A stretch of 64,000 nucleotides of DNA from Candidatus Hydrogenedens sp. (lineage in GTDB: Bacteria > Hydrogenedentota > Hydrogenedentia > Hydrogenedentales > Hydrogenedentaceae). A model generated the notes under the pieces. The model did no database searches. It had not been told where the DNA came from and was given only the letters and a program-made list of their open reading frames with translations. This document shows positions 61,347 through 63,808 of the stretch, piece after piece. The translations under genes were made by a program, and so were the position numbers. The stretch lies in contig DAOSUS010000001.1 in the NCBI GenBank assembly GCA_035378955.1, forward strand, positions 20,580-84,579, given 5' to 3'. Every line of letters begins with the position of its first letter. Within the stretch, counting starts at the first letter, position 1.

Positions 61347-62157
61347 TATATAGATGAAGCGTCCTGGCTTCTGGTATTTTTAGGTAGTTAAATCTTTTTA
61401 CCACAAAGAACAAAAAGTCCCTGCACAAAGTCCAAAAAGTAGAGACCGTCCCCTTTTATTATATACATCCTCTGTGTCCTTTGTATAAAATTTCTTTTGT
61501 GTCCTCTGTGGTTAATTCTTGAAACACAAATGATTCAAATAAAACAAACGAGATCTCTGAATAGAGGAAAAAAAACAAAAAATCAATAAGAAAAAACTCA
61601 ATTATTGTTTATAGAAAAGATATTTTCCTTTCTCAAAGCGATTTTCTTTTTCCAAAAACGGTATAATTATTTTACATTTTAATCTAAAAACTAAAAACCC
61701 TATTTGTTCAGAGGTCTCATATATTAATTGGTATAGGGATTTATTGGAGTTATACTAAGGAGTAGTTTATGAGTTTCCATTGGGTAAACAAGGAGAAATT
61801 TGTATATAAGTATATTATTTGGAAAAAAATAGAGATTAGGGTAATACCGAGATAATGCAAATAAAATGGCTTAATAGCCTCATGCAGAATAAAACGAGTA
61901 ATTATCTATATTGAACTTATTACCCTATGTACCAGAGATAATCCTTATCATAAAATAACTAAATAAAATTGAGCACAATCTTAGAAATAACTTGATTATC
62001 GTTAATCTATTTTTATGAACAAAAACAGAATTCATTTTGCTTTTAGTGAAAGAAAATGTTTATATTATAGTATTATCTGAACAAAAAGAAAAAATTGTAA
62101 GACTACTAACAAAAAAATATTTGTTCGTGAACAAATAGAAAATTGTGTAATTCAAAA

Positions 62158-63033
62158 ATGAGTGAGAAAAGATATCTGGATAAAGTTTTTTACAAAGATG
62201 CTAGGAGTATGGAAGAAATCCCAGACGGAGTTGTGGACTTAGTCGTAACAAGCCCTCCATATTTTAATATAAAAGACTATTCAAAAGATGGCTGGCAAAA
62301 AACTTACCATTCAAAAAAAATCTCCGGACAGATTGGAGATATTAGTGATTATGAAACTTACATTCAAGAATTGTTGAAAGTTTGGAATGAGTGTGATCGC
62401 ACACTTAAACCAAATGGGAAACTAATCATTAATGCTCCACTTATGCCAATGTTAAAACGAGAATTAAATACACACTATAACAGACATATTTTTGATATAG
62501 CAGCTGACATCCAACACTCTATATTGAAAAACATTAAAAATATGTTTTTATATGATATTTATATATGGAATAGAATTAACTGGAGTAAAAAGTTAATGTT
62601 TGGAAGTTATCCTTACCCGCGAAATTTTTATGCACAAAATACAATAGAGTTTATAACTGTATATGTAAAGGAAGGAAAACCTGATAATAACATTCCTAAA
62701 GAAATTAGAGAAAGAAGTAAACTCACAGAAAAAGAATGGGTAGAATATACCAAACAAATATGGAATATTCCAATTCCAAGCAAAAATGATCTTGCTTTTG
62801 GGAAACATCCTGCTATTATGCCAGAAGAAATTGTTAGAAGATGTGTTAAATTATTTACATATATTGGTGATGTTGTTTTAGATCCATTTGCGGGGAGTGG
62901 AACAACATTGAAAGTCGCGAAAGATTTAGGAAGACATTTTATAGGATATGAGATTTGCAAAACATATAAAGATGTAATAGATAGAAAACTTAGTCAAATT
63001 ACCTTTGAAGAATTTTTGTATGCTAAAGGTTGA
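62158..63033 (+). CDS. DNA methyltransferase, beta-class (SPPY motif; N4-cytosine or N6-adenine)
   Basis: Motif IV VDLVVTSPPYFN precedes motif I VLDPFAGSGTTLKVAKDLGRHFIGYEI (PF01555-type). The alternative start at 62143 is also possible. Confidence 0.8.
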   Translation: MSEKRYLDKVFYKDARSMEEIPDGVVDLVVTSPPYFNIKDYSKDGWQKTYHSKKISGQIGDISDYETYIQELLKVWNECDRTLKPNGKLIINAPLMPMLKRELNTHYNRHIFDIAADIQHSILKNIKNMFLYDIYIWNRINWSKKLMFGSYPYPRNFYAQNTIEFITVYVKEGKPDNNIPKEIRERSKLTEKEWVEYTKQIWNIPIPSKNDLAFGKHPAIMPEEIVRRCVKLFTYIGDVVLDPFAGSGTTLKVAKDLGRHFIGYEICKTYKDVIDRKLSQITFEEFLYAKG

Positions 63034-63808
63034 AACTAATAAACTTTATGTAATGGATTGTTTCAAATTTTTGAAATTGGTTCCTGAAGAATTTGTCGAT
63101 TTGATAATTATTGACCCACCCTACAATATGAAAAAAGATAAATGGGATAAGTTTAATTCCACTGAAGATTTTTTTAAATTTACGAACTCCTATTTGGATA
63201 TGTTAATTCCGAAGTTGAAGGTAACAGGAAGTTTTTATATTTTTAATTCTCCATTTAATTGTGCATTTATATTGAAATATCTTTTAGATAAAGGATTAAC
63301 TTTTCAAAATTGGATAACATGGGATAAAAGAGATGGTTTGTCTGCTGCTAAAAGGAAATATACAAGTAGTCAGGAAACTATATTATTCCTTACAAGGTCC
63401 CATAAATACACTTTTAATGTAGACGATGTTAGAATTCCTTATGACTCTCTTGAGAGGATAGAACATGCTAAAAAAAAAGGCATACTTAAAAATGATAAAA
63501 GGTGGTATCCTCATCCTAAAGGTAAACTTTGTACGGATGTATGGCATTTTTCAAGTGAGAGACATAAAAATAAAATAAACGGCAAAACTCCTAAATTACC
63601 CCATGCAACCCCTAAACCTCTTGACTTAATTGAAAGAATAATTAAAGCAAGTAGTAATCCGGGAGATTTAGTATTAGATTGTTTTGTCGGTATAGGGACA
63701 ACTGCCGTTGCTGCAAAAGGGTTAGGACGAAACTTTATTGGTTGCGATATTAATCCTGAATACATAAAAATTGCTAATCAAAGGTTAAAAATGATAAAGA
63801 ATGAATAA
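63005..63808 (+). CDS. DNA methyltransferase, beta-class (DPPY motif; probably N6-adenine)
   Basis: DLIIIDPPYNM then VLDCFVGIGTTAVAAKGLGRNFIGCDI. Overlaps the first MTase by about 29 nt and is adjacent to it. Confidence 0.8.
   Translation: MKNFCMLKVETNKLYVMDCFKFLKLVPEEFVDLIIIDPPYNMKKDKWDKFNSTEDFFKFTNSYLDMLIPKLKVTGSFYIFNSPFNCAFILKYLLDKGLTFQNWITWDKRDGLSAAKRKYTSSQETILFLTRSHKYTFNVDDVRIPYDSLERIEHAKKKGILKNDKRWYPHPKGKLCTDVWHFSSERHKNKINGKTPKLPHATPKPLDLIERIIKASSNPGDLVLDCFVGIGTTAVAAKGLGRNFIGCDINPEYIKIANQRLKMIKNE

What the first reader, a model, noticed from the sequence alone, without database searches (positions are those of the whole stretch)
62011..63808. Two adjacent beta-class DNA methyltransferases (SPPY + DPPY) with palindromic GAACAAA operators and no restriction enzyme before the window ends
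The two MTases overlap and are co-oriented. One carries SPPY (often N4-cytosine) and the other DPPY (N6-adenine), the arrangement typical of Type IIS or two-methylase Type II systems that modify each strand of an asymmetric site separately. The locus is the most AT-rich coding DNA in the window. It is preceded by an inverted repeat TTTGTTC-GT-GAACAAA (62124-62139) immediately upstream of the start, and GAACAAA recurs at 62017 and 62080, so these may be autoregulatory operators. No endonuclease or C-protein is visible upstream. A new ORF begins at about 63959 just before the window ends, so the cognate nuclease may lie beyond the window. Alternatively this is an orphan two-MTase module with an epigenetic or anti-defence role.
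Basis: partly seen in the sequence, partly recalled or inferred. Interest (0 to 1): 0.6.

Follow-up and report, generated by a model that had tools for sequence, protein, structure and literature searches.

The report
Complete MboII-type restriction-modification gene cassette
The two methylase genes are the front of an ordinary three-gene bacterial restriction-modification system of the well-studied MboII/HpyAII type. Its DNA-cutting enzyme gene starts inside the window right after the second methylase, so this is not an orphan or unusual module.

Summary
The two co-oriented, overlapping beta-class methyltransferase genes are real: Ma (SPPY) at 62158-63033 and Mb (DPPY) at 63020-63808.

Mb is 61% identical to the crystallised M1.MboII (E 8.5e-114). 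Ma matches published fragments of M2.MboII.

A third ORF starts at 63801, not 63959. It overlaps the Mb stop by 8 nt and runs off the window. A 100%-identical metagenome contig continues it to 386 aa.

That protein belongs to a family some of whose members are annotated as MboII or Type IIS R subunits. Its HH-N-H motif has the same spacing as the mutagenised motif of HpyAII. The model of an 85%-identical homologue has an N-terminal half resembling the recognition domains of BpuJI, BspD6I and FokI.

The same Ma-Mb-R order recurs in about 40 genomes of many phyla, and in at least four genomic contexts among close relatives. It is therefore a compact mobile Type IIS cassette, most likely recognising GAAGA.

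The palindrome is real but sits at 62118-62137, and GAACAAA does cluster locally. Three things argue against an operator:
- The cassette has no regulator gene.
- The arms are not conserved in cassettes about 86% identical.
- The palindrome is hit by a 1-nt polymorphism.

Verdict: new member of a known kind, low interest.

The parts
62158..63033 (+). Ma: beta-class amino-methyltransferase, SPPY motif, M2.MboII-like (predicted N4-cytosine, bottom strand TCTTC). 291 aa from ATG 62158; an alternative TTG lies at 62143.
   Evidence: PF01555 at E 1.9e-50. Best solved relatives are 2zie and the N4-cytosine MTases 8s9n/8s9m. It matches the published M2.MboII fragments MNTIFFKDSR, ILKNT, KLFLM and FGVHSA. 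It is 55-87% identical to the first gene of the cassette in about 40 genomes.
63020..63808 (+). Mb: beta-class N6-adenine methyltransferase, DPPY motif, M1.MboII homologue (predicted m6A in GAAGA). 262 aa. Its start overlaps the end of Ma by 14 nt.
   Evidence: PF01555 at E 4.1e-64. E 8.5e-114 to PDB 1G60 M.MboIIA over the full length. Identity is 156/254 = 61%.
63801..64000 (+). R: first 66 codons of the Type IIS restriction endonuclease. The complete protein is 386 aa on the identical contig L001 (2116-3276), which corresponds to 63801-64961 in extended window coordinates. The ATG overlaps the Mb stop by 8 nt.
   Evidence: The frame is open from 63801 to the window end. L001 is 100% identical over 61686-64000. 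The in-window part contains the family's invariant DYRGxHLSQHNRLPF signature. Homologues are named MboII or Type IIS R subunit.
62118..62137 (.). Perfect palindrome TATTTGTTC-GT-GAACAAATA, 20 nt upstream of the Ma ATG. Function not established. The in-frame TGA at 62128-62130 sits at its centre.
   Evidence: I9. Chance estimate. Not conserved in sister cassettes. A delta-G at 62129 occurs in L002 and L004.
62079..62085 (+). GAACAAA copy. It aligns with the start codon context (ATG-AAC/GAC-AAA-AAG) of the N-terminally extended Ma ORF of sister cassettes. In the window that ATG is CTG.
62017..62023 (+). GAACAAA copy at the left edge of the DNA shared with sister cassettes. It lies in a 6-nt insertion relative to L059-L061.
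62036..62065 (+). Candidate promoter of the operon: TTGCTT, 18 nt, TATATT. This is an inference only, and the consensus scan did not call it.
   Evidence: The block is conserved between the window, L051 and L059 (TTGCTTTT ... TATA[TGA]T). It is absent from the promoter scan list because the -35 matches only 3 of 6 positions.

Best explanation
This locus is a complete, compact (about 3.2 kb), horizontally mobile Type IIS restriction-modification operon of the MboII/HpyAII family, with the gene order M2-like MTase, M1-like MTase, REase.

**Shown**
- Two separate beta-class amino-methyltransferases are present: Ma with SPPY and Mb with DPPY.
- A third gene follows, whose product has a C-terminal HH-N-H nuclease motif.
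- A high-confidence model of the 85%-identical homologue P0001 has an N-terminal domain folded like the DNA-recognition domains of other Type IIS enzymes.
- The three genes overlap (14 nt and 8 nt), and their order is conserved across phyla.

**Inferred from the characterised relatives MboII and HpyAII**
- Mb methylates N6 of the last adenine of GAAGA.
- Ma methylates N4 of a cytosine in the complementary TCTTC.
- R binds unmethylated GAAGA through its N-terminal domain and cuts 8/7 nt downstream with its HNH domain.
- One promoter upstream of Ma, together with translational coupling, makes the methylases ahead of, and in step with, the nuclease. No C protein is then needed.

The GAACAAA palindrome and repeats are most likely sequence left over from a variable 5' leader or N-terminal extension of Ma, not operators.
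For: **Methyltransferases**
- Both genes match PF01555.
- Mb matches M1.MboII (PDB 1G60) at E 8.5e-114 and 61% identity, evenly along the whole length.
- Ma matches M2.MboII peptide fragments. The Helicobacter homologue starts MNTIFYK, against the Edman sequence MNTIFFKDSR of M2.MboII.
- PMC7494987 states that M1.HpyAII makes m6A in GAAGA and M2.HpyAII makes m4C in TCTTC.

**Endonuclease**
- The ORF starts at 63801.
- Contig L001, 100% identical to the window, gives the full 386 aa.
- 73 homologues were found. One is named 'Type-2 restriction enzyme MboII' and two 'type IIS restriction endonuclease subunit R'.
- H298, N319 and H328 are invariant and H297 is nearly invariant. Their spacing (21 and 9) equals that of HpyAII H329/N350/H359, which were tested by mutagenesis.
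- The family profile hits the HNH domains of pyocin AP41 and Cas8f-HNH exactly on this motif.
- MboII is placed in the HNH superfamily by sequence analysis (PMC2441816).

**Cassette**
- Ma-Mb-R occur in the same order and strand in about 38 of 45 genome loci, from Endomicrobia to Campylobacter, Helicobacter and an archaeon.
- Close relatives sit in at least four different gene neighbourhoods.
- Shared DNA runs from 62002-62114 on the left to 2 nt past the R stop on the right.
- The locus has the lowest GC in the window, and an rve transposase lies downstream.
Against: - No direct comparison with the authentic R.MboII or R.HpyAII sequences was possible. The link rests on a database name, on primer-derived peptides and on motif spacing.
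- One paper (PMC7494987) states that MboII has a PD-(D/E)XK site. That conflicts with the HNH assignment in PMC2441816.
- Specificity is inferred from 61% identity to M1.MboII, and specificities can change within MTase families.
- GAAGA is not avoided in the window (244 observed against 143 expected), so composition gives no support for that site.
- Only 66 codons of R lie in the window. One sister contig (L004) has a frameshifted R.
- The promoter is inferred, not called by the scan.
Confidence: 0.87

Rival explanations
1. Orphan two-methyltransferase module. The methylases act without a nuclease, for example as epigenetic regulators or to protect against incoming MboII-type nucleases.
For: Only 66 codons of the downstream ORF lie in the window. 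One near-identical contig (L004) has a 1-nt deletion that truncates R at about 130 aa while both MTases stay intact. M2.HpyAII is reported to have an epigenetic role (PMC7494987).
Against: Contigs L001 and L002 carry an intact 386-aa R with all HNH residues, and L003 is intact as far as it reaches. The window shares the G at 62129 with L001 and L003, not with the L004 haplotype. The R start overlaps the Mb stop, and R is conserved next to the MTases in about 40 genomes.
Confidence: 0.05
2. Same family and architecture, but a recognition sequence other than GAAGA. It could be a related asymmetric site such as an extended or altered GAAGA-like motif.
For: R is only 28-37% identical to the Helicobacter, Campylobacter and 410-420-aa branch of the family. 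Mb is 61%, not over 90%, identical to M1.MboII. No site avoidance is seen.
Against: Both MTases stay 55-87% identical across the whole family, including the Helicobacter and Campylobacter loci, most of them MAGs or uncultured isolates. The two characterised enzymes named for this family, MboII and HpyAII, share GAAGA. The match to M1.MboII runs over the whole length, with no divergent segment that would suggest a swapped recognition domain.
Confidence: 0.22
3. The palindrome TATTTGTTC-GT-GAACAAATA and the further GAACAAA copies are operators through which the operon is autoregulated. The binding protein would be one of the methylases or a host protein.
For: The palindrome is perfect. It lies between the inferred promoter and the Ma start. 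GAACAAA occurs 5 times in 472 bp against 0.10 expected, in 0 of 1000 shuffles. The extended 11-mer TGAACAAATAG occurs twice, at 61703(-) and 62129(+).
Against: - There is no C protein or other small ORF, and Ma has no DNA-binding N-terminal domain.
- In cassettes about 86% identical the arms carry uncompensated changes (L051, L053, L059). There the stretch lies inside an in-frame 5' extension of Ma, and only one GAACAAA copy is kept.
- Contigs from two other samples lack the central G.
- A single 9-nt-arm inverted repeat in this AT-rich DNA has P about 0.08.
- The motif was chosen after it was seen.
Confidence: 0.08

Closest known systems
MboII restriction-modification system of Moraxella bovis (R.MboII, M1.MboII, M2.MboII; GAAGA 8/7)
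   Same: - It has two separate beta-class MTases, one adenine-N6 (DPPY) and one cytosine MTase.
- Mb is 61% identical to the M1.MboII crystal structure sequence over 254 residues.
- Ma shares the published M2.MboII fragments.
- An R-family member is annotated as MboII.
- The nuclease is HNH-type, as predicted for MboII in PMC2441816.
   Different: - The host is an uncultured bacterium from metagenomes. The closest R homologues are in Endomicrobia/Elusimicrobiota MAGs.
- The R branch of 386 aa is shorter than the 410-420-aa branch.
- The R.MboII sequence itself could not be compared.
- The specificity is untested.
HpyAII system of Helicobacter pylori 26695 (R.HpyAII, M1.HpyAII m6A, M2.HpyAII m4C; GAAGA 8/7)
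   Same: - The three-component make-up is the same.
- The HNH motif HH-21-N-9-H has identical spacing.
- HpyAII primer-derived peptides (FELHHIVPL..., YIDAFNHAKI...) match members of the same R family.
- Helicobacter and Campylobacter loci carry the same Ma-Mb-R cassette.
   Different: - HpyAII is phase-variable and flanked by 80-bp repeats that delete or restore it (PMC7494987).
- No significant flanking repeats were found here.
- The frameshift seen in L004 is not in a homopolymer tract.
- R identity to the Helicobacter branch is only about 29-31%.
Other Type IIS enzymes with tandem winged-helix recognition domains (FokI, N.BspD6I/BspD6I, BpuJI)
   Same: [quoted passage not shown] The plan of a recognition domain joined to a separate cleavage domain is the same.
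   Different: Those enzymes use PD-(D/E)XK cleavage domains, whereas this one has a C-terminal HNH motif. Sequence identity is only 8-14%.
C-protein-controlled Type II systems (for example PvuII, Esp1396I) with palindromic C-boxes
   Same: A palindrome lies upstream of the first gene of the operon.
   Different: There is no C gene, and the palindrome is not conserved in sister cassettes.

Membership tests
MboII/HpyAII-family Type IIS R-M system | A separate beta-class N6-adenine MTase homologous to M1.MboII (DPPY, motif order IV...I) | tested here: met
   Mb matches 1G60 at E 8.5e-114 with 61% identity. DPPY and FxGxG (DCFVGIGTT) are present.
MboII/HpyAII-family Type IIS R-M system | A second, separate beta-class MTase homologous to M2.MboII/M2.HpyAII (SPPY, N4-cytosine) | tested here: met
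   PF01555 at E 1.9e-50 and the SPPY motif. Solved N4-cytosine MTases are among the best PDB hits. Local agreement with M2.MboII fragments and N-terminus. Only fragments of the reference protein were available, and the methylated base was not tested.
MboII/HpyAII-family Type IIS R-M system | An endonuclease homologous to R.MboII/R.HpyAII with a C-terminal HNH (beta-beta-alpha-Me) catalytic motif | tested here: met
   The HH-N-H residues are invariant or nearly invariant across 50 homologues. The spacing is identical to the mutagenised HpyAII motif. The profile hits HNH domains, best E 0.016. A homologue is named MboII. Caveat: there is no full-length alignment to the reference enzymes.
MboII/HpyAII-family Type IIS R-M system | Recognition of GAAGA/TCTTC with cleavage 8/7 nt downstream | not testable with these tools
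   This needs a methylome or enzyme assay. Site counts are uninformative (244 observed against 143 expected).
Type IIS restriction endonuclease (general) | Two-domain protein with a sequence-recognition domain separate from the cleavage domain | tested here: met
   The AF2 model of P0001, 85% identical to the window's R, has pLDDT 91. Its N-terminal part matches the BpuJI, BspD6I and FokI recognition domains, and the HNH motif lies at residues 297-328.
C-protein-regulated R-M system | A small helix-turn-helix controller gene with a conserved palindromic C-box upstream | tested here: not met
   No ORF of 60 aa or more lies in 61022-62142. The three genes fill the cassette. The palindrome is not conserved.
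Orphan (solitary) DNA methyltransferase | No cognate endonuclease gene adjacent | tested here: not met
   The R ORF starts at 63801 and is intact on identical contigs.

The most novel reading that the evidence does not exclude
The palindrome region acts as a small switch. The single-G polymorphism at its centre (62129) removes the in-frame TGA and fuses an upstream ORF to Ma. The population would then toggle between a short and an N-terminally extended form of the first methylase, or between two leader structures. That would tune the methylase-to-nuclease ratio in a Type IIS system that lacks a C protein. The GAACAAA copies would be part of this control region.
Probability: 0.05. Interest if true: 0.35.

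Novelty: new member of a known kind. Interest (0 to 1): 0.12.

Why it matters
It matters little beyond annotation.
- It adds an uncultured-lineage member, most similar to Endomicrobia/Elusimicrobiota MAG homologues, to the MboII/HpyAII family.
- It shows that this three-gene cassette is a tight mobile unit whose shared DNA ends 2 nt after the R stop codon. The unit is spread across bacterial phyla and one archaeon.
- It gives a confident structural model for the family's nuclease: a FokI/BpuJI-like recognition domain joined to an HNH domain. The model bears on conflicting literature statements about the MboII catalytic fold.
- For genome interpretation, it predicts m6A at GAAGA and m4C at TCTTC in this organism's methylome.

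Tried and rejected
- **Naming the nuclease from domain libraries.** Pfam and NCBIfam scans of the 386-aa protein gave nothing significant.
- **Finding the authentic R.MboII or R.HpyAII.** I looked among the 410-420-aa homologues by cluster look-up and found no names. A second profile search of the 5.8-billion protein set added no named reference enzyme.
- **Reading the M1/M2.MboII paper.** The 2009 Microbiology paper is not held in the library.
- **Site avoidance as a clue to specificity.** GAAGA is over-represented, not avoided, so the count is uninformative.
- **Flanking repeats.** I searched for flanking direct or inverted repeats like the 80-bp repeats around HpyAII. None was significant (best E 0.12).
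- **Methylation-sensitive promoter.** No GAAGA or TCTTC site lies between 61000 and 62211, so this idea was rejected.
- **Rfam scan of the 1.1-kb spacer.** It returned only a sub-threshold STnc40 hit on a terminator-like hairpin.
- **Sigma-70 promoter scan.** It gave fewer hits than shuffles and none directly upstream of Ma.
- **Phase variation of R through homopolymer tracts.** The L004 frameshift lies in GGATTT, not in a homopolymer run.
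Full report
**1. What is at the coordinates**

Two co-oriented ORFs occupy the locus.
- Ma runs from ATG 62158 to 63033 (291 aa; an in-frame TTG lies at 62143) and carries VVTSPPY.
- Mb runs from ATG 63020 to 63808 (262 aa) and carries IIIDPPY.
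- They overlap by 14 nt.
- Both match Pfam PF01555 N6_N4_Mtase over the whole domain, with E 1.9e-50 and 4.1e-64.
- The 62001-64000 bin has the lowest GC of the window, 0.294 against 0.32-0.42 elsewhere.

The observation of two beta-class methyltransferases is therefore correct.

**2. The missed nuclease gene**

In fact an ATG at 63801 overlaps the Mb stop codon (63806-63808), and the frame stays open for 66 codons to the end of the window.

An exact-sequence look-up of Mb found four metagenome contigs. L001 (JGI 3300009761) is 100% identical to window 61686-64000 and runs 9.8 kb further. On it the ORF is 386 aa long.

The in-window part already contains the most conserved signature of the protein family, DYRGxHLSQHNRLPF.

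**3. Identity of the three proteins**

*Mb.* It matches the crystallised M1.MboII (PDB 1G60, 'M.MboIIA') at E 8.5e-114 over residues 4-257. Identity is 156/254 = 61%, spread evenly along the alignment.

*Ma.*
- Its best solved relatives are 2zie and the N4-cytosine MTases 8s9n/8s9m.
- PMC4417176 gives the N-terminus of M2.MboII (MNTIFFKDSR) and several codon strings (AKDWL, IFDLN, ILKNT, KLFLM, FGVHSA).
- Ma has VFYKDAR, SKDGWQ, HIFDIA, ILKNIKNMFLY and FGKHPA at the corresponding places.
- A Helicobacter member of the Ma family starts MNTIFYK.

*The 386-aa protein (R).*
- It has no Pfam or NCBIfam match.
- It has 73 homologues. One is named 'Type-2 restriction enzyme MboII' and two 'type IIS restriction endonuclease subunit R'.
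- In alignments of 32 and 50 homologues, H298, D315, N319 and H328 are invariant and H297 is nearly invariant.
- A profile of the family hits the HNH domains of pyocin AP41 (E 0.016) and of Cas8f-HNH fusions exactly on ELHHIvPl...N..NL...H..I.
- PMC7494987 shows by mutagenesis that HpyAII (GAAGA, 8/7) uses H328, H329, N350 and H359. The spacings of 21 and 9 are the same as here.
- The peptides encoded by that paper's primers (FELHHIVPLCLARSI, YIDAFNHAKISQT) resemble members of this family.
- PMC2441816 lists MboII in the HNH superfamily by sequence analysis. PMC7494987 instead repeats an older PD-(D/E)XK assignment for MboII, a conflict I could not resolve without the R.MboII sequence.
- An AlphaFold2 model of the 85%-identical homologue P0001 has mean pLDDT 91.1.

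R is thus a two-domain Type IIS nuclease with an N-terminal winged-helix-type recognition domain and a C-terminal HNH cleavage domain.

**4. Conservation and mobility**

A scan of one genome per species with the R alignment returned 45 loci. They include Endomicrobia (74-82% identity), Bacteroidia, Parcubacteria, Altiarchaeum, Raineya orbicola, Campylobacter, Helicobacter and others.

In about 38 of them tblastn finds Ma, Mb and R in the same order on the same strand. The exceptions are truncated contigs, one Mb-R-Ma arrangement (L035), and the Helicobacter suis plasmids, where R is convergent with the two MTases.

The MTases are much better conserved (Ma 55-87%, Mb 46-85%) than R (28-74%).

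Close relatives (R 83-85% identical) lie in at least four different neighbourhoods:
- between a DHO-dehydrogenase cluster and UvrD/PD-(D/E)XK genes;
- next to an rve transposase and N_methyl/FecR genes;
- next to DruA-type defence genes;
- upstream of an HhH-GPD glycosylase gene.

Nucleotide similarity to the window begins at 62002, 62059 or 62114, depending on the relative. It ends 2 nt after the R stop. The unit that moves is therefore the bare promoter-Ma-Mb-R block of about 3.2 kb.

In the window it sits between a GLUG/PASTA surface protein gene and an rve transposase (on L001). It is preceded by 1.1 kb without ORFs.

**5. The proposed operators**

*What supports the observation.*
- The palindrome is real but lies at 62118-62126 / 62129-62137, with perfect 9-nt arms and a 2-nt spacer.
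- GAACAAA occurs 29 times in the window against 17 expected.
- Five of these fall in the 472 bp before Ma against 0.10 expected, in 0 of 1000 shuffles.
- One or more perfect inverted repeats with 9-nt arms in that stretch has P about 0.08.

*What argues against operator function.*
- No regulator gene exists. No ORF of 60 aa or more lies in 61022-62142.
- Ma starts where most family members start, with no extra DNA-binding domain.
- In cassettes about 86% identical in DNA the arms are changed without compensation. L051 has CATTTATTC/GAACAGATA, and L059 has lost the right arm.
- In L051 and L059 the stretch lies inside an in-frame 31-codon 5' extension of Ma (MNKKKKIIYNTTTKSKKAFIREQIG...). That extension starts at the ATG aligned with the window's CTG at 62078, just before the GAACAAA copy at 62079.
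- The window lineage has lost that frame through ATG to CTG, an 11-nt deletion and stop codons.
- Contigs L002 and L004, from other samples and otherwise identical, lack the G at 62129 in the palindrome centre.

The operator idea is therefore unsupported, though it has not been disproved experimentally. The simplest account of control is the operon layout itself: a single upstream promoter region and overlapping, presumably translationally coupled genes, with the methylases first. The promoter is inferred from a block conserved with L051 and L059 (TTGCTT-18-TATATT at 62036-62065) and was not called by the scan.

**6. Specificity**

By homology the site is most likely GAAGA/TCTTC.
- The two characterised enzymes named for this family, MboII and HpyAII, both recognise it.
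- Both MTases stay conserved across the family.
- Composition gives no independent support, because GAAGA is over-represented (244 against 143 expected).
- No GAAGA site lies in the leader.

I put about 0.65-0.75 on GAAGA and about 0.9 on family membership.

**7. Verdict**

The finding is a correctly spotted pair of methyltransferases. The interesting alternative, an orphan module with novel operators, does not hold. This is an ordinary, complete Type IIS R-M operon of a known family in a new host, so it is a new member of a known kind and of low interest.

Noticed in passing
window 62129 (L002 pos 140, L004 pos 22): Two contigs from other samples, otherwise 99.9-100% identical, lack the G at the centre of the palindrome. 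This removes the in-frame TGA and fuses an upstream ORF (VKENVYIIVLSEQKEKIVRLLTKKYLFVTNRKLCNSK-) to Ma, so that gene callers give 328 aa.
   Followed up: partly
L004 about 2081 (= L001 2504, extended window coordinate about 64189): A 1-nt deletion in GGATTT, not a homopolymer, truncates R at about 130 aa in one sample's population while both MTase genes stay intact. This may be decay towards an orphan-methylase state, or an assembly error.
   Followed up: partly
window 61022-62157: This is 1.1 kb of AT-rich DNA (GC 0.276) with no ORF over 47 aa, lying between the GLUG/PASTA gene and the cassette. Four independent assemblies break inside it (at 61686, 61990, 61998 and 62108), which suggests strain variation at the cassette's left junction.
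   Followed up: no
window 61301-61328: A strong terminator-like hairpin is present, with a 12-bp stem, 6 GC pairs and a T-run on the + strand. It is readable on both strands. A sub-threshold Rfam STnc40 hit (26 bits, E 0.058) covers it.
   Followed up: no
L051/L052, L059-L061, L005 (upstream of Ma): Only this close subclade has a 23-31-residue lysine-rich N-terminal extension on the M2-like methylase and lacks an ATG at the usual start. In L059 the extended ATG lies about 7 nt after a TATAAT/TAATAT box, which would give a leaderless mRNA.
   Followed up: partly
L060 312-3896; L059/L061 2600-3838; L001 3624-4544: Sister cassettes sit next to DruA plus AAA_15/SMC-type defence genes (L060), or next to rve transposase genes on either side. 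This points to a defence-island and IS-rich setting.
   Followed up: no
L027 3720-4760 and 5001-6002; L035; L062 (H. suis plasmid): Several variant layouts occur in the family. A Saccharibacteria contig has two tandem R paralogues after a truncated Mb. A Campylobacter MAG has the order Mb-R-Ma. On small Helicobacter suis plasmids R is convergent with both MTases.
   Followed up: no
window 62313-62320 (A8 in Ma), 63470-63478 (A9 in Mb): Long A tracts lie inside both methylase genes. A/T tracts in mboIIM2 are reported hot spots of transcriptional slippage (PMC4417176). No length variation was seen among the four identical contigs.
   Followed up: partly
whole window: GAAGA/TCTTC is strongly over-represented (244 against 143 expected, in 0 of 100 shuffles) although the locus probably encodes a GAAGA-specific nuclease. 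GAACAAA is also enriched window-wide, 29 against 17 expected.
   Followed up: no
family-wide (L005-L049): Both methyltransferases are far better conserved (Ma 55-87%, Mb 46-85%) than the nuclease (28-74%) across the same loci.
   Followed up: no
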